From the IMG/VR virus record IMGVR_UViG_3300022074_000004: a stretch of DNA of 64,000 bases. The stretch is one strand, 5' to 3'. The DNA is from a virus. Below, one piece after another: positions 38,879-49,313 of this stretch (position 1 is its first letter; every line of letters starts with the position of its first letter). The translations under genes were made by a program, and so were the position numbers. A model generated the notes under the pieces. It worked only from the letters and a program-made list of their open reading frames with translations. It had not been told where the DNA came from and searched no databases.

Positions 38879-39139
38879 TTGGTTTATCTCCTTTCACAAA
38901 CAAACCATAGCACAAAACAGTGCGGTGTGAACAGTCTCCCGCAAAAATGAGTATTCATTACTACCATTTTGGATTATATGTCTTGTGTTGCTAATTGTTG
39001 AGTTGCAATAAGGGCATATTAAGCTATATTTGCTTTGCAGTTCAAAAAGGATTTGCCACTGGGTAATTTTAGACACATCACATCGGTCGATAACTAAGGA
39101 GAGATATTTTATCTCTCCTTTTTTTGTGTTTATTTCATG

Positions 39140-39196
39140 TGGCACTTGCAGAACTGGCATAGATCAGGTCGTGGGGTCAAGAGCTGTGGGTATCAT
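39140..39196 (+). promoter_or_regulatory. Dyad site + -10 box promoter
   Basis: TGGCACTT-GCAG-AACTGGCA, 31 bp, TATCAT. Confidence 0.7.
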
Positions 39197-39286: not shown

Positions 39287-39532
39287 ATGCGTAATTTTCA
39301 GAGTTTTGATGACTTTGTTGAGCTGATTGTTCCCTTTTCTATTGGTGCAGTGAGCTTTTCTCTGCTTGCTATTGCTTCTCAGCAGGCAATTTTTAACCAA
39401 AATGCAAAAGACAAGTGTGCTCTGGCCTCTACTCACCGTCTCGTAGTTGTCCAGAGCTTCTTCGGTGATGCCTATGGTTGCGTGAAGCTATTCCAATGGT
39501 ACAATCCAGAATCTGTCACTGACCGGGCTTGA
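39287..39532 (+). CDS. Hypothetical membrane protein
   Basis: Hydrophobic segment LIVPFSIGAVSFSLLAIA; HRLVVVQSFFGDAYGCV. Confidence 0.7.
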   Translation: MRNFQSFDDFVELIVPFSIGAVSFSLLAIASQQAIFNQNAKDKCALASTHRLVVVQSFFGDAYGCVKLFQWYNPESVTDRA

Positions 39533-41900: not shown

Positions 41901-42000
41901 ACAAGATGACTTTCGAGGAATTGAAACTACTGATTCTACTGTTGTCACCGGCAATGCTCATGTCGGTATTATTACTGATAACGTTTGCTGCCGAGACCTA

Positions 42001-42056
42001 TGACAGCTGACAAAGTGGCACGGTTCAGCTCACAGATTTAAGAGCTGGATTATTAT
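42001..42056 (+). promoter_or_regulatory. Dyad site + -10 box promoter
   Basis: TGACAGCT-GACA-AAGTGGCA, 30 bp, TATTAT. Confidence 0.7.
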
Positions 42057-45701: not shown

Positions 45702-45806
45702 TATAACACACACAGAGAGGTTGATCACCTATGACTGGGTCTCCCCCGAAGACCCACCACACACACGGAAGAGTATTAGGAGAGGCTTGAGAACCTCTCC
45801 TTTTTT
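45702..45806 (+). ncRNA. Candidate ~105-nt small RNA with own promoter and terminator
   Basis: Dyad 45629-45648 and TAGCAT at 45691; two ACACACAC tracts, hairpin tgggtct/agaccca, terminator aggagagg/cctctcct-T5; no convincing ORF. Confidence 0.5.
45778..45806 (+). terminator. Rho-independent terminator
   Basis: aggagagg-cttgagaa-cctctcct followed by a T run. Confidence 0.85.
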
Positions 45807-46290
45807 ATGTCATCTTCATTGATTCTTTACCTGTTAATGTTTTCACCTTCACTAGCATCATCTTCACTCTCATTGTCATCTTCATTATCATCATTTTGAG
45901 CATTATTGCCTACAAAATAGCATAAAAACACATTAAAAATACATTTATAAATATACTTTCGTTTTTTATTCAAATGCACTCCCGATACGCCCAGCAGTGC
46001 CTCCAGAGCATCTCAACAGCATCTAAAACACTAAATCATACTCTATATGTGTCATCTTCACAATCATCATCACATATACACATACATATGTCATCTTCGC
46101 TATCATCATCATATTCATAATTTTTATCTTTATCTTTATACCTGTGGAATGCAGCTGTGGAATTGTGGAATAAATCTTTTATCATAAACTTTTTCTCTCA
46201 ATAGTATATGATTGTAAATTTTATGATTTATATTTTATTAGAAAAACATTTGATTTTTATTTCTCATAAACGTTTCATAATGCTCTGATA
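45807..46290. other. Gene-free, AT-rich, G-poor tract with GTCATCTTCA copies (possible unwinding element)
   Basis: No ORF in track; decamer copies or variants at 45809, 45842, 45857, 45875, 46051, 46090. Confidence 0.45.
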
Positions 46291-46321
46291 ATGCTCCGGG
46301 GTCTTGTGATCTTAGCCTGCG

Positions 46322-46350
46322 AGCTTAGCACCGACCGCCCGTTTTGTCAA
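46322..46350 (-). promoter_or_regulatory. Minus-strand sigma70 promoter firing into the AT-rich tract
   Basis: TTGACA-17 bp-TAAGCT (with TG extension) on the reverse strand. Confidence 0.7.
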
Positions 46351-46448
46351 GACCCCCGCCATAAAAATTCACAAGGTCTCGGTTTTCAAACAATCCGCAT
46401 ACCTCCGAGTTTTATGGTATAATAAGCAAAAAAACACTATAAGGCAGT

Positions 46449-46491
46449 GGACGGTTTATGAAGTGGTACAGTGCCAGTTTTTTATGTGTCT
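46449..46491. promoter_or_regulatory. Tandem double dyad site 1
   Basis: GGACGGTT-TATG-AAGTGGTA cag TGCCAGTT-TTTT-ATGTGTCT. Confidence 0.65.
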
Positions 46492-46584
46492 TTGTAACAA
46501 TGTAAAGATTCATAAAATGGTAGTGAGTGACACAGCGCCACGGGCCACGGTGGGCTAGAGTAAGAATAGAGCCTTATGAGGGGT

Positions 46585-46627
46585 GGACAGTTTATGAAGT
46601 GGCACTGTGACACTTTGAGAACTGGCT
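46585..46627. promoter_or_regulatory. Tandem double dyad site 2 (contains left arm of the 31-bp inverted repeat)
   Basis: GGACAGTT-TATG-AAGTGGCA ctg TGACACTT-TGAG-AACTGGCT. Confidence 0.75.
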
Positions 46628-46650
46628 GATTGTTACAGTTTGATATAATT

Positions 46651-46716
46651 ATTTTATGGCAGGAGTAGTGGCGATTATTGTTGTCATCGAGGTTACCCCA
46701 CCTCTCGTTTGATTTG
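46651..46716 (-). ncRNA. Putative small RNA, copy A of a three-member family
   Basis: TG-N-TATACT -10 box at 46727-46722; GAGGT-N6-ACCTC hairpin; ends CTCCTGCCATAAAA; ungapped similarity to copies B and C. Confidence 0.55.
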
Positions 46717-46721
46717 ATCAT

Positions 46722-46815
46722 AGTATAGCAGCTCTCAGGGGTCTCTCAGGGCATCCGTGGACACTTATTGGACTGGCACAATAGAGGTAGCGGTGCCGCG
46801 ATCTGAGGTTATTCT
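46722..46815. promoter_or_regulatory. Bidirectional promoter centred on one dyad
   Basis: Dyad GGACACTT-ATTG-GACTGGCA (46759-46778) with TATTCT 31 bp to the right (+) and TATACT 31 bp to the left (-). Confidence 0.75.
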
Positions 46816-46838
46816 TTTATCAGTAACGTTCTTCCCCC

Positions 46839-47045
46839 ATGAGCTACGAAGTGTTTCACCGGACTTGGTGGCGGCGCAATGATGAGTGGCCTGATGGCCG
46901 GGAGCCCGGTTGCGGCCGTGCTTACCACATCGGCTGGGCTGCTGACGAAGCCGAAGCCAGTGCTATGTGTAAGGAGTGGAACAGCAAGCATAAGCCCGGG
47001 CTGTTTTCTGACAGAGCAGAGTACAGCGAGGGCCGGTTCACATAA
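46839..47045 (+). CDS. Conserved phage hypothetical protein
   Basis: YEVFHRTWWRRNDEWPDGREPG...CKEWNSKHKPG..AEY; promoter upstream. Confidence 0.75.
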   Translation: MSYEVFHRTWWRRNDEWPDGREPGCGRAYHIGWAADEAEASAMCKEWNSKHKPGLFSDRAEYSEGRFT

Positions 47046-47084
47046 GCACTAAACTTTAACAGTATTTTTTTCCCCTTTTAAGTT

Positions 47085-47348
47085 ATGAACACTGAAACGT
47101 ATGACCTGCCCGCTCACTGGGCAAGCTATCTTATCAACGGCGATGCAACGTCATTCAGCCTGAATGATGATGGCGGAGACGCTGAGATCGCATTGATTGA
47201 TGAGGTTATGTCGAACATTGACCAGAAAGGAAACGCCATCATTGATGTTGATGCAGAAGAAAGTTTCTTCAAAAAGTATCACGATGCTCACATGTATGGC
47301 GTAATGGCTGGTACTTGCCTAACGTATAAGCTGACGTGGATTGACTGA
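47085..47348 (+). CDS. Conserved phage hypothetical protein
   Basis: TYDLPAHWASYLINGDATS motif. Confidence 0.75.
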   Translation: MNTETYDLPAHWASYLINGDATSFSLNDDGGDAEIALIDEVMSNIDQKGNAIIDVDAEESFFKKYHDAHMYGVMAGTCLTYKLTWID

Positions 47349-47412
47349 TCATAAACTTTAACGTTATTCTTTTTACCTTCCGCATCATAAGTCACCTTGG
47401 CGGTCATCATCG

Positions 47413-47469
47413 GGCCACCTGACACACTGGCACAACAGAGCTTGTGACCTTGAGAGCTGCGGCTATTCT
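47413..47469 (+). promoter_or_regulatory. Dyad site + -10 box promoter
   Basis: GGCCACCT-GACA-CACTGGCA, 31 bp, TATTCT. Confidence 0.7.
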
Positions 47470-47500
47470 TTAGTTGTCAACGTTTTTCCCCTTCTGAGCC

Positions 47501-47749
47501 ATGACCACCACCGTCGTCAAGCACTGCTTCTATAAGGTCGAGATTGACACTAAAGACTCTGTGATCCCCATCATCTACTTTCGTAAGGTGAGACGCTGTA
47601 CCACTGCTAAGGGCATGGATCGTCAGCACAATCGCATCGTTAACGAGACTGTGGAGGCATGGCGTCCTTTTGACCGTCAGATCACGCGCTACACTGTTTC
47701 TCGTGTGCCAGCTGACGTAGTGGTCAAGGGTGAGATCCGCAACGCCTGA
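47501..47749 (+). CDS. Conserved cyanophage-type hypothetical protein
   Basis: FYKVEIDT..PIIYFRK..TTAKGMDRQHNRIVNETVEAW. Confidence 0.75.
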   Translation: MTTTVVKHCFYKVEIDTKDSVIPIIYFRKVRRCTTAKGMDRQHNRIVNETVEAWRPFDRQITRYTVSRVPADVVVKGEIRNA

Positions 47750-47777
47750 TCGGCTCCCACTATGCTAGGATATGGTC

Positions 47778-47878
47778 AGTCAAAGGGGGCACCGCCTATG
47801 GCCTGATTCGCTACAACCTAACGAGAGGCGATGTAGCCTCGCAGACGACAAAGGTCGCCACTGCCCCTGTAACAAAAT
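47778..47878 (+). ncRNA. Putative small RNA, copy C (with 5' extension)
   Basis: TG-N-TAGGAT -10 box at 47766; 46/63 ungapped identity to copy A over 47815-47877; GAGGC-N6-GCCTC hairpin; GGGGCA/TGCCCC closing stem. Confidence 0.5.
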
Positions 47879-47893
47879 ATAATTATGTAACAT

Positions 47894-47936
47894 AACCACA
47901 TATAAAAGTGTCACAGTGCCACTTCATAAACTGTCA
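47894..47936. promoter_or_regulatory. Tandem double dyad site 3 (contains right arm of the 31-bp inverted repeat)
   Basis: AACCACAT-ATAA-AAGTGTCA cag TGCCACTT-CATA-AACTGTCA; 47905-47935 is the exact reverse complement of 46586-46616. Confidence 0.75.
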
Positions 47937-47950
47937 CATATCTTATAGGT

Positions 47951-48016
47951 ATTTTATGGCAGGAGAGCTTACGAACTTTATCGTCTACAGGGCGACCCAG
48001 CCCCTCCTCTGATTTG
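47951..48016 (-). ncRNA. Putative small RNA, copy B
   Basis: TG-N-TATGAT -10 box at 48027-48022; begins CAAATCA and ends CTCCTGCCATAAAA like copy A, in the same register relative to the -10 box. Confidence 0.55.
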
Positions 48017-48021
48017 AACCA

Positions 48022-48062
48022 ATCATATCAGACCCAGCTGCGCTGTCTGTATCGTGTGATAC
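48022..48062 (-). promoter_or_regulatory. NtcA-type promoter (GTA-N8-TAC-N21-TAN3T)
   Basis: Reverse strand reads GTAtcacacgaTAC, 21 bp, TATGAT. Confidence 0.55.
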
Positions 48063-48179
48063 CATTTTGGAAATATGTCGAAATGTGAATTTTCAAACGT
48101 TTCCCACTAGCGTTTCGCTCTCGGTGTCGTAACCTATTGGCAAGCGGGCGCACTGAAGCCCGCGCAACCCCAAAGGACT

Positions 48180-49313
48180 ATGAACAGCTCAGCTCAAGCT
48201 AAGGCTCTCGAAAGCCTTCTGGCTCTTGATACCGGTCGCGCCGATCGCCCGGACGGCTTCCGCATGTCCGCAGCGGATCACAAGCTTTTCCGTGGATACG
48301 CTCGTGTTGTTGAGCCCGGCATGACCGACAGCGACATCCTGATGCACGCTGGTGCTGGCTTCAACGTTGAGACGCAGCCGGTGAGTTTTAAACTGCCCAG
48401 CGGTAGCTACTGCTCAACCCCTGACAGCATCGTGTGGTCTCGGGATGATCGGGACGATGAGACGGCTTTTCTGGGTACGTTCGGCAACCGTCGCGCCGTG
48501 ATCCAGCCTAGCGACTTCCTTTCCTACTTCCAACGCTTCGTACAACAGTCTGGCAAGCGTATCTCCCTAGATGTTGTGGGAACGCTTGACAATGGAAAGC
48601 AATTCTTTATGGGCTCGAAACTTACAGAAAATAACATCGAAGCTATTCTTGACAATCCTGAGCACCAACACGTTGGAATGCGTGTTAATGAGTTCTTCAA
48701 ACAAGAGGATCTATCGGACTATTGGTTAGTCGTTACCGATTTTTATGGCACTAGCAGAGCACCACAGGTGAATCTTTTGTGCAATCGCTTAGTCTGCACC
48801 AACGGAATGACTCGTCAAGTTAAAACTAAGTTGGCAGCATTAACACACCGCAAGGATCTAACCGGCGATAGTGTTGTTGAAGTATTGAACCAAGGGATTC
48901 GTGAGGCTTCAAACTATTGTAAGATCCAGGATTTGCTGACTGAAATGGAACTAACTCCAGAACAATTCAATAACGGTATTAAGAAGTTCTGCCGGGTTAA
49001 AACAGGAACTTTGGACACTGATCTTCCTTCCAAAGTAAAGGGTTTCCGGGAAACGTATCACGCTACAGATAAAGGTAAGATCGTAGGAATCGAGACTTAT
49101 AAGACATCTACAGGTACAGATAACGCCTGGAGAGCACTGAATGCAGTGACACAATATATCACCCACAAGCCATTAAAGAACCAAGACGCTGCATTGCGTT
49201 CATCAATCAATGGCACTCGTGCTAAAGAACCGAACGCTTATTTGCAGTTCCTGGCTGATAACCACGGGACGCCAGATCAGCAGGCTGAGTTGAGAGAACT
49301 CATCGCAGTCTGA
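48180..49313 (+). CDS. DUF932 (DUF945/TIGR03299-like) phage/plasmid protein
   Basis: AAGGA RBS; NRLVCTNGM signature, GTLDNGKQFF, NAWRALNAVTQYITH. Confidence 0.8.
   Translation: MNSSAQAKALESLLALDTGRADRPDGFRMSAADHKLFRGYARVVEPGMTDSDILMHAGAGFNVETQPVSFKLPSGSYCSTPDSIVWSRDDRDDETAFLGTFGNRRAVIQPSDFLSYFQRFVQQSGKRISLDVVGTLDNGKQFFMGSKLTENNIEAILDNPEHQHVGMRVNEFFKQEDLSDYWLVVTDFYGTSRAPQVNLLCNRLVCTNGMTRQVKTKLAALTHRKDLTGDSVVEVLNQGIREASNYCKIQDLLTEMELTPEQFNNGIKKFCRVKTGTLDTDLPSKVKGFRETYHATDKGKIVGIETYKTSTGTDNAWRALNAVTQYITHKPLKNQDAALRSSINGTRAKEPNAYLQFLADNHGTPDQQAELRELIAV

What the first reader, a model, noticed from the sequence alone, without database searches (positions are those of the whole stretch)
46651..48016. 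Three-member ~65-nt element family with compensatory stem changes
Seen (transcribed sense): A aatcaaacgagaggtggggtaacctcgatgacaacaataatcgccactactcctgccataaaa; C aacctaacgagaggcgatgtagcctcgcagacgacaaaggtcgccactgcccctgtaacaaaa; B aatcagaggaggggctgggtcgccctgtagacgataaagttcgtaagctctcctgccataaaa. They align without gaps. The 5-bp stem with 6-nt loop covaries (GAGGU/ACCUC, GAGGC/GCCUC, GGGGC/GCCCU) while the loop varies. The 3' pyrimidine patch has a G-rich partner in each copy (GGGGUA/UACUCC, GGGGCA/UGCCCC, GGAGGG/CUCUCC). Each copy has its own TG-extended -10 box. A-versus-C substitutions are spread over all codon positions. Inference: a structured ncRNA family.
Basis: partly seen in the sequence, partly recalled or inferred. 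Interest (0 to 1): 0.8.

Follow-up and report, generated by a model that had tools for sequence, protein, structure and literature searches.

The report
New small RNA family in cyanophages
The three ~65-base repeats are real copies of an undescribed small non-coding RNA family found in many T4-like cyanophage contigs; each copy has its own promoter and one short hairpin kept by compensatory mutations, and its function is still unknown.

Summary
Confirmed and extended. The window is a T4-like cyanomyovirus (Kyanoviridae). It holds exactly three copies: A 46652-46715 (-), C 47813-47879 (+) and B 47952-48015 (-). A covariance model gives E 1e-13 to 1e-16 for these; the next best match has E about 1.

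Relatives are common in viral contigs: 128 matches, 86 distinct, often 2-4 per 10 kb. Isolates DSL-LC03, B3/B23 and S-SRM01 carry it. Rfam 15 has nothing similar. An exact-pattern scan of 185,579 prokaryote species genomes found none in cyanobacteria.

Family-wide the loop is conserved (nGGGUA/C), not variable.

An opposite-strand ORF starting MAG is not conserved. 95% of distinct upstream contexts have a -10 box at a fixed distance. Most also have a 24-bp dyad 29-30 bp further upstream. The element nearly always points against the flanking genes (61 of 65 clear cases).

Best reading: a promoter-driven regulatory small RNA, probably acting by antisense or base pairing. Transcription and function were not shown here. 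This scan's first stage had also flagged this same stretch twice, in overlapping windows.

The parts
46652..46715 (-). Copy A, conserved RNA core. The predicted transcription start is the A at 46715 and the core ends in the A-rich tail.
   Evidence: CM R1 81.8 bits, E 1.5e-16; sequence read.
46689..46704 (-). Copy A hairpin: 5-bp stem with 6-nt loop GGGGUA.
46722..46730 (-). Copy A promoter, a TG-extended -10 box (TATACT) ending 6 nt before the predicted start.
   Evidence: The same geometry is found in 79 of 83 distinct relatives' contexts.
46757..46780 (.). A 24-bp dyad lying 29 bp upstream of copy A's -10 box. It also lies 29 bp upstream of the -10 box at 46810-46815 of the divergent + strand gene 46839-47045.
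   Evidence: Exact match to the dyad pattern; spacing read; family-wide spacing.
46583..46629 (.). Tandem double dyad (46583-46606 and 46606-46629) just downstream of copy A in the RNA's direction.
   Evidence: kept in the syntenic contig L182.
46641..46649 (+). Near-consensus TG-extended -10 box on the opposite strand. It would start a + strand transcript at about 46656, fully complementary to copy A (face-to-face promoters).
   Evidence: Sequence; kept in L182 copies 6713 and 9806. Activity is inferred.
47813..47879 (+). Copy C, the most degenerate copy (loop GAUGUA, tail altered) and the only one pointing the same way as the genes.
   Evidence: CM 69.8 bits, E 1.1e-13.
47825..47840 (+). Copy C hairpin.
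47763..47771 (+). Candidate TG-extended -10 box (TAGGAT) for copy C, giving a roughly 36-nt 5' extension.
   Evidence: the same box stands before the L182 7988 copy.
47915..47938 (.). Dyad between the convergent copies C and B. As RNA it folds into a long hairpin in the run-on of B, and less so in that of C.
47952..48015 (-). Copy B, conserved RNA core (predicted start at 48015).
   Evidence: CM 70 bits, E 9.5e-14.
47989..48004 (-). Copy B hairpin (loop UGGGUC).
48022..48030 (-). Copy B promoter, a TG-extended -10 box (TATGAT). B has no upstream dyad.

Best explanation
A, B and C are paralogous genes of an undescribed family of small non-coding RNAs of T4-like cyanophages (Kyanoviridae).

Shown:
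- A conserved core of about 65 nt. It consists of a 5' ACAAUC box, a GAGG box, a 5-bp hairpin whose stem covaries freely while its loop stays nGGGUA/C, then conserved unpaired boxes (GAYGA, UCGNCAC, CCUGC) and an A-rich end.
- A sigma-70-type promoter at a fixed distance. The TAnnnT box ends 6 nt before the first conserved base. It is often TG-extended, with a weak TTG-type -35 box.
- In most copies, a 24-bp dyad (TGTGCCA-N10-TGGCACA or a near variant) 29-30 bp upstream of the -10 box.
- An orientation opposite to the flanking protein genes. The same dyad often carries a mirror-image -10 box for the divergent gene.
- In one large subfamily, the RNA runs into the GC hairpin that terminates the convergent upstream gene.

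Inferred:
- Host RNA polymerase makes a discrete RNA. It would be about 110-120 nt where that hairpin follows, and in the window it would end at the dyad hairpins.
- The stem only has to pair. The invariant loop and boxes are the recognition surface.
- The RNA regulates by base pairing. Most likely it acts as a cis-antisense partner of gene-strand transcripts that cross the intergenic region (read-through, or transcripts from the opposing -10 boxes). This may be combined with interference between face-to-face promoters, and possibly with trans action through the C-rich box.

Base-pairing or antisense regulator as the mechanism, about 0.35-0.4.
For: - Family size and specificity: 84 loci from a tail pattern. 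29 loci from a 5'-anchored pattern, 18 of them new. 128 CM matches, 86 distinct. Only 6 exact-pattern hits in 185,579 prokaryote species genomes, none cyanobacterial; the CM confirms three matches on two of those contigs, both short MAG contigs.
- Hairpin.
- Strand: 66 G.U cells and 0 A.C cells.
- Promoter: 79 of 83 distinct upstream contexts have TAnnnT ending 4-7 nt before the conserved A. The independent scan finds the A and B promoters.
- Dyad: 60 of 86 contexts have a dyad at a constant 28-32 nt from the core window. 29 of those 60 have a mirror -10 box at 29-31 nt on the far side.
- Orientation: antisense to the local coding strand in 61 of 65 clear cases, and in the annotated phages DSL-LC03 and B3.
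- Downstream hairpins.
- Non-coding.
- Flanking genes are diverse: 41 clusters of divergent neighbours, all of unknown function. The element is therefore a general intergenic module, not tied to one gene.
Against: - No RNA was observed. The only RNA-library contigs over the region have depth 2 and are probably DNA.
- Only one short helix is supported.
- The terminator-like hairpin downstream is oriented for the other strand: its T run is on the gene strand. The sense RNA's 3' end is therefore uncertain, and the RNA may run on as a long antisense transcript.
- The conserved 3' end could partly reflect a -10 box for the opposite strand.
- Most of the homologue set was gathered with a pattern in the tail, which inflates tail conservation. 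The 5'-anchored set shows the last 10 nt vary.
- No target was identified.
Confidence: 0.55

Rival explanations
1. The repeat is a DNA-level regulatory and recombination cassette, like the PeSL promoter-terminator motifs of T4-type phages. Conservation would come from promoter, operator and terminator signals and from recombination between copies. Any RNA made would be a by-product.
For: - The copies sit in a hyperplastic stretch of small ORFs of unknown function.
- A and C are inverted repeats bracketing a three-gene block (I2).
- Public DNA assemblies break at the copies.
- The dyad-plus-29-bp promoter class also drives protein genes that have no RNA element.
- The flanking genes differ from contig to contig.
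- The PeSL concept is taken from PMC4122927.
Against: - A DNA signal does not explain the many distinct stem sequences that all keep pairing, nor the 66 G.U to 0 A.C asymmetry.
- Conservation starts exactly at the predicted transcription start and covers 65 nt that are neither promoter nor terminator.
- This rival is not exclusive: the cassette role can be true in addition to the RNA role.
Confidence: 0.15
2. The element is a promoter-proximal leader that modifies transcription or stability of a long antisense transcript. It would be a nut-like antitermination site (small hairpin plus linear boxes) or a 5' stabiliser, rather than a discrete small RNA.
For: - The element starts at the predicted +1. 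It has a small hairpin with a covarying stem and fixed loop plus linear conserved boxes, as in lambda nut sites (my knowledge, not tested).
- The next structure downstream is a hairpin in its weak orientation, which transcription could pass.
- Phage antisense RNAs that shield mRNA from RNase E are reported for cyanophage P-SSP7 (my recollection of Stazic et al. 2011; not read here).
Against: - No N-like or Nus-box match was sought or found.
- Several downstream hairpins are followed by U-rich stretches and could terminate in both directions.
- No antisense transcripts were observed.
Confidence: 0.15
3. The functional product is a short peptide (starting MAG) read from the opposite strand. It would be leaderless or nearly so, possibly a type I toxin, with the reader's RNA as its antisense antitoxin.
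For: - A and B both read ATG plus 17 codons plus TGA on the + strand.
- A near-consensus extended -10 box at 46641-46649 would start the mRNA at that ATG.
- Peptide A is hydrophobic.
Against: - Across the family the ORF length runs from 3 to 74 codons.
- One-nt indels put the hairpin in different frames in different subfamilies.
- Stem positions change amino acids non-conservatively while keeping base pairs.
- 14 of 62 sequences lack the ATG, and 10 of 18 in the tail-unbiased sample do.
- Copy C has neither the ATG nor the stop.
Confidence: 0.03

Closest known systems
PeSL / PmSL composite promoter-terminator cassettes of T4-type phages (Arbiol et al. 2010; Comeau et al. 2014, PMC4122927)
   Same: Both are multi-copy intergenic modules in hyperplastic regions of T4-like genomes. 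Both combine a sigma-70-type promoter with a stem-loop, flank small ORFs of unknown function, and are plausible substrates for modular shuffling.
   Different: In a PeSL a terminator stem-loop is followed by a promoter that points with the genes. Here the promoter points against the genes. The covarying hairpin is not a terminator: it has 5 bp, a conserved loop and no U run. There are 65 nt of conserved transcribed sequence, and a 24-bp dyad at a fixed 29-30 bp is part of the unit. PeSLs were described for enterobacterial and vibrio phages, not cyanophages.
Small cis-antisense RNAs of phages (P22 Sar, lambda OOP, cyanophage S-PM2 CfrI; review PMC12197685)
   Same: All are short RNAs with their own promoter on the strand opposite to the neighbouring genes, placed between or at the ends of genes, and able to pair perfectly with gene-strand transcripts.
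   Different: Those are single-copy and tied to one target gene (ant, cII, psbA). This family is multi-copy, sits next to many unrelated genes, and is conserved in sequence across distant phages. There is no sequence or Rfam relationship.
Sibling small RNAs with a shared unpaired motif (e.g. cyanobacterial Yfr2-5, Yfr1)
   Same: Both have several paralogous copies per genome. Hairpin stems vary while loop or single-stranded motifs are conserved, and each copy has its own promoter.
   Different: No Rfam match to any Yfr or other family, even at E up to 10. No copies were found in cyanobacterial genomes by the exact-pattern scan. No target is known.
Lambda-type nut sites (boxA plus boxB hairpin)
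   Same: Both are promoter-proximal. Both have a 5-bp hairpin whose stem covaries while the purine-rich loop is fixed, conserved linear boxes beside it, and more than one copy per genome, in opposite orientations.
   Different: There is no boxA consensus and no N-like protein was identified. The resemblance is from memory and was not tested.

Membership tests
Any Rfam 15 family (including Yfr, glnA, manA, wcaG, PhotoRC, CRISPR-DR, hammerhead) | Match to the family covariance model at its gathering score | tested here: not met
   No hits on the whole window at gathering thresholds. At E up to 10 on 46300-48200 there were only six chance-level hits to unrelated eukaryotic or viral families.
PeSL cassette | Sigma-70-type promoter within the repeat | tested here: met
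   TAnnnT at a fixed distance in 79 of 83 contexts; A and B promoters found by the scan.
PeSL cassette | Terminator stem-loop immediately upstream of the promoter, both oriented with the genes | tested here: not met
   The promoter points against the genes in 61 of 65 clear cases. The terminator of the upstream gene lies downstream of the RNA, not upstream of its promoter.
PeSL cassette | Multi-copy, in hyperplastic regions, next to variable ORFs | tested here: met
   2-4 copies per 10 kb; neighbouring genes fall into 41 unrelated clusters of unknown function.
Cis-antisense phage small RNA | Own promoter on the strand opposite to the flanking genes | tested here: met
Cis-antisense phage small RNA | A gene-strand transcript overlaps it and is regulated by it | not testable with these tools
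   There are only candidate opposing -10 boxes (46641-46649; the box after the terminators). The RNA runs were uninformative.
Type I toxin-antitoxin | Conserved small ORF opposite the RNA | tested here: not met
   ORF length of 3-74 codons, frame not conserved, ATG often absent.
Hammerhead ribozyme (considered because of CUGAUGA...GAAA in some copies) | Conserved CUGANGA and GAAA core around three stems | tested here: not met
   The heptamer varies between subfamilies (GCUGA, GUAGA, GUGGA). There is no second or third stem and no Rfam hit.
CRISPR repeat, mini-array or RNA anti-CRISPR (considered because of hairpin plus ACUGAAC in one subfamily) | Repeat-spacer periodicity, or match to a known repeat family | tested here: not met
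   Copies lie at least 60 nt apart, in mixed orientation. The 'spacer-like' part is the conserved part. No Rfam CRISPR-DR hit. Host repeats were not compared.
Lambda-type nut site | Promoter-proximal hairpin with fixed loop and covarying stem | tested here: met
Lambda-type nut site | boxA consensus and a cognate antiterminator protein | not tested
   No search was made; none is obvious among the neighbours.

The most novel reading that the evidence does not exclude
The RNA and the dyad together form a previously unseen gene-control module of T4-like cyanophages. A dyad-binding factor (phage or host) would fire a symmetric bidirectional promoter. One arm drives a protein gene. The other arm makes this structured RNA, which gates read-through from the preceding gene by antisense pairing, face-to-face promoter interference or nut-like modification. 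This could be the missing regulator of a temporal (middle-type) class in phages that lack MotA and AsiA (their absence is from my own knowledge).
Probability: 0.12. Interest if true: 0.85.

Novelty: new variant of a known kind. Interest (0 to 1): 0.62.

Why it matters
Cyanomyoviruses are among the most abundant viruses in the sea, and how they regulate their genes is poorly understood. Few cyanophage RNAs are known: CfrI, plus Rfam motifs such as glnA, manA and wcaG.

This is a widespread, multi-copy RNA element with clear covariation and a recognisable promoter. It is tied to a fixed-geometry dyad that also stands before protein genes. It therefore gives:
- a new RNA family suitable for Rfam;
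- a testable promoter and operator class;
- a marker for the plastic regions where these phages swap genes.

Cultured carriers exist (DSL-LC03, B3/B23, S-SRM01), so ordinary experiments can settle its function.

Tried and rejected
- Public RNA runs. Three RNA-labelled runs held only depth-2 contigs, and two of the three are flagged as probably DNA. One 163-nt contig covers copy B. They give no verdict on transcription or strand.
- Second helix (columns 46-48 with 60-62). Two pairs are invariant and the third is broken in half of the sequences.
- Loop-tail pseudoknot. 71% of cells pair, with weak and inconsistent compensation. Copies with G-rich or GAACC tails keep the same loop.
- Pairing of the 5' flank with the tail, suggested by single-sequence folds. 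It fails in the alignment. Mutual information over all column pairs shows only the stem pairs standing out.
- A sense-strand ORF (ATG after the hairpin). The ATG is absent and in-frame stops occur in other subfamilies (read).
- The opposite-strand MAG ORF.
- A fourth copy in the window. None was found. The tail-like box at 46352-46366 belongs to a different conserved block whose predicted helix is not kept in L182.
- Host origin. No cyanobacterial genome matched the exact pattern. This misses diverged copies.
- Literature. Nothing found on this element or the dyad. The Syn9 transcriptome paper is not held.
- No whole genome is held for the window.
- Pfam and PHROGs searches of the neighbouring genes gave only unknown-function families: DUF932, Kyano_Gp96 and several PHROGs.
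Full report
**What is there.** The window is a T4-like cyanomyovirus. The only blastn matches of 46200-48200 are to one small gene of Synechococcus and Prochlorococcus myoviruses. Neighbouring proteins hit Kyanoviridae-type families.

The three elements are present as described. In window coordinates they are A 46652-46715 (-), C 47813-47879 (+) and B 47952-48015 (-). They align without gaps. A covariance model built later finds these three at E 1e-13 to 1.5e-16 with all filters off. Nothing else in 64 kb scores better than E 0.94. Rfam 15 has no match at gathering scores on the whole window, and only noise at E up to 10 on the region.

**Relatives.** A 14-mer scan was too unspecific, but it brought in five true homologues. 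A 23-nt degenerate pattern from the tail gave 84 viral contigs. A pattern anchored on the 5' half gave 29 contigs, 18 of them new. The model R1 finds 128 matches, 86 distinct, in 89 sources, commonly 2-4 per 10 kb.

Cultured carriers are the Synechococcus phages DSL-LC03 (1 copy), B3 (2 copies), B23 and S-SRM01. S-CAM4 has none. In DSL-LC03 and B3 nothing is annotated under the matches.

The same tail pattern hits only 6 contigs among 185,579 prokaryote species genomes, and none is cyanobacterial. The model confirms three matches on two of them, both short MAG contigs that look like mis-binned phage DNA. Contig L182 is syntenic with the window. It has four copies, including the convergent C/B pair.

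**Structure.** On that MAFFT alignment:
- 98.4% of cells pair.
- All five pairs show compensatory double changes (56 cells).
- The covariation score is 0.567, against 0.156 in shuffles (0 of 500 reach it) and at most 0.118 when the partners are slid by 1-3 columns, a control that keeps relatedness.

The model-fitted alignment of 86 distinct sequences gives 99.8% paired cells and a score of 0.675, against at most 0.106 for slid partners. That alignment leans towards the model. Many different stem sequences occur.

The stem holds 66 G.U or U.G cells and no A.C cell. Most of this asymmetry comes from the closing G.U pair, which alternates with G-C.

No other pairing holds:
- A second small helix.

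A mutual-information scan of all column pairs shows only the stem pairs standing out.

**Coding is excluded.** On the opposite strand A and B read ATG, 17 more codons, then TGA, which looked like a serious rival. Across the family that ORF is 3 to 74 codons long. One-nt indels shift the hairpin into another frame in other subfamilies. Stem positions change amino acids freely while keeping base pairs. The ATG is missing in 14 of 62 sequences, and in 10 of 18 sequences collected without reference to the tail. A sense-strand ATG after the hairpin is likewise not conserved.

**Promoter and dyad.** Conservation begins at an ACAAUC (or AAAUC) box.
- In 79 of 83 distinct upstream contexts a TAnnnT hexamer ends 4-7 nt before its A, and in 55 of them exactly 6 nt before.
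- The hexamer itself varies (TATACT, TAGACT, TATCTT, TAGGAT and others) and is often preceded by TG. A weak TTG-type -35 box lies 16-17 bp upstream.
- The independent consensus scan picks out the A and B promoters.
- In 60 of 86 contexts a 24-bp dyad (TGTGCCA-N10-TGGCACA, or with TGTCCAC as its right half) ends a constant 28-32 nt before the core window, which is 29-30 bp before the -10 box.
- In 29 of those 60 a mirror-image -10 box lies 29-31 bp beyond the other end of the dyad, against 1-2 at other offsets.

In the window the dyad at 46757-46780 serves copy A on one side. On the other side it serves the -10 box at 46810-46815 of gene 46839. Both spacers are exactly 29 bp.

The same dyad-28/29 bp-TAnnnT layout stands before the + strand genes at 39287, 42087 and 47501, which have no RNA element. 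The dyad is therefore a promoter element of this phage group, and the RNA genes use it. The dyad pattern is enriched in the window: 20 matches against 4.1 expected. Eleven of the 20, at seven distinct positions, lie within 46.4-48.0 kb. The right half-site changes without compensation in the left half, so the dyad is conserved as a sequence (a likely protein site), not as a hairpin.

**Orientation and surroundings.** By a crude ORF-coverage measure the element is antisense to the local coding strand in 61 cases, co-directional in 4 (among them copy C and its L182 counterpart), and ambiguous in 41. The two annotated isolates and contig L139 agree.

Downstream in the RNA's direction there are three layouts:
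- An A-rich stretch, then a GC hairpin that on the other strand is the canonical terminator (hairpin plus T7-8) of the convergent gene. This hairpin is often followed by a U-rich stretch on the RNA strand too.
- An AT-rich 12-bp hairpin, then the dyad of the next unit.
- One or two dyads directly, as in the window and L182.

The neighbouring genes are diverse and of unknown function.

In the window a near-consensus extended -10 box at 46641-46649 (+) faces copy A's promoter across about 60 nt. Similar opposing boxes can be read for B and C, and after the terminators of the large subfamily. Their -10 character is lost in the tail-unbiased sample, so I treat them as candidates only.

**How it most likely works.**
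- Shown: a conserved, phage-restricted, multi-copy element with one covariation-proven hairpin, a fixed-geometry promoter and a dyad, pointing against its neighbours.
- Inferred: it is transcribed into a discrete small RNA. The invariant loop and single-stranded boxes are the working surface.
- My favoured mechanism (about 0.35-0.4) is regulation by base pairing. As a divergent partner of a gene promoter and a convergent partner of the preceding gene, the RNA is perfectly complementary to any gene-strand transcript that crosses the spacer. It could therefore control read-through, processing or translation of the next gene. Face-to-face promoter interference is a possible added layer. The multi-copy, same-motif pattern also fits sibling trans-acting small RNAs.
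- Alternatives: a nut-like or stabilising leader of longer antisense transcripts (0.15), and a mainly DNA-level cassette of the PeSL kind (0.15, not exclusive). The peptide reading is nearly excluded (0.03).

**Comparison and novelty.** The nearest concepts are:
- PeSL promoter-terminator cassettes of T4-type phages.
- Small cis-antisense phage RNAs such as Sar, OOP and CfrI.
- Sibling small RNAs.
- From memory only, lambda nut sites.

It is a member of none of these. There is no Rfam match. The PeSL-defining layout of terminator followed by a co-directional promoter is not met. No conserved toxin ORF exists. I found no paper describing the element or the dyad, though the key Syn9 transcriptome paper could not be read. 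I rate it a new RNA family and a new variant of the known kind 'phage intergenic regulatory cassette / small RNA'.

**Limits.**
- Most homologues were found with a tail pattern, so tail conservation is overstated. The 5'-anchored set keeps the UCGNCAC box and mostly the CCUGC box, but varies in the last 10 nt.
- Many sequences are close relatives.
- Transcription, RNA ends and function are untested.
- The first stage of this scan had flagged the same stretch twice, in overlapping windows. Those notes gave titles only and did not change my reading.

Noticed in passing
39138-39196, 41999-42056, 46757-46815, 47411-47469: A promoter class made of a 24-bp dyad, a 28-29 bp G-rich spacer and a TAnnnT box stands before + strand protein genes (starts 39287, 42087, 46839, 47501). 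At 39.1 kb it lies directly after an intrinsic terminator. It looks like a regulated phage promoter class with an unknown dyad-binding factor.
   Followed up: partly
46294-46392 (+): A non-coding block 82% identical to the end of contig L182. It carries a box at 46352-46366 that resembles the element's tail. A predicted long helix and terminator-like hairpin fold well (z -2.6), but the helix is not kept in L182. It may be a different small RNA or a promoter region.
   Followed up: partly
45800-46260: A very AT-rich stretch with short direct repeats and two 49-50 aa ORFs rich in Asp and Glu on the minus strand (46036-46185 and 45827-45979), downstream of copy A in its direction. They have no family match and could be a small leftward unit led by copy A.
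   Followed up: no
46520-46560: A GC-rich segment between two dyads that can form a short CCAC/GUGG hairpin. It lies after a TATTCT box 14 nt from dyad 46583-46606 on the minus strand. This may be another short transcript.
   Followed up: no
46615/46712 and 47879/47906: Contigs of a public viral-metagenome run that holds this phage end at these positions, which are at the repeat copies. This fits assembly breaks at repeats or strain-level rearrangement there.
   Followed up: no
L201 and L206 (genome contigs): Short MAG contigs labelled Bacteroidetes and Thiomargarita carry true copies of the element (two in L201). They are probably cyanophage DNA binned into the wrong genomes.
   Followed up: partly
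48180-49313 (+): A 377-aa protein with a DUF932 domain (E 2e-15) lies directly downstream of copy B's promoter region on the other strand.
   Followed up: no
L136:66-146, L019:2037-2117, L164:8528-8608, L209: In some copies the C-rich tail box is replaced by a G-rich one, while the hairpin loop is unchanged. This argues against loop-tail pairing and hints at subfamilies with different specificities.
   Followed up: partly
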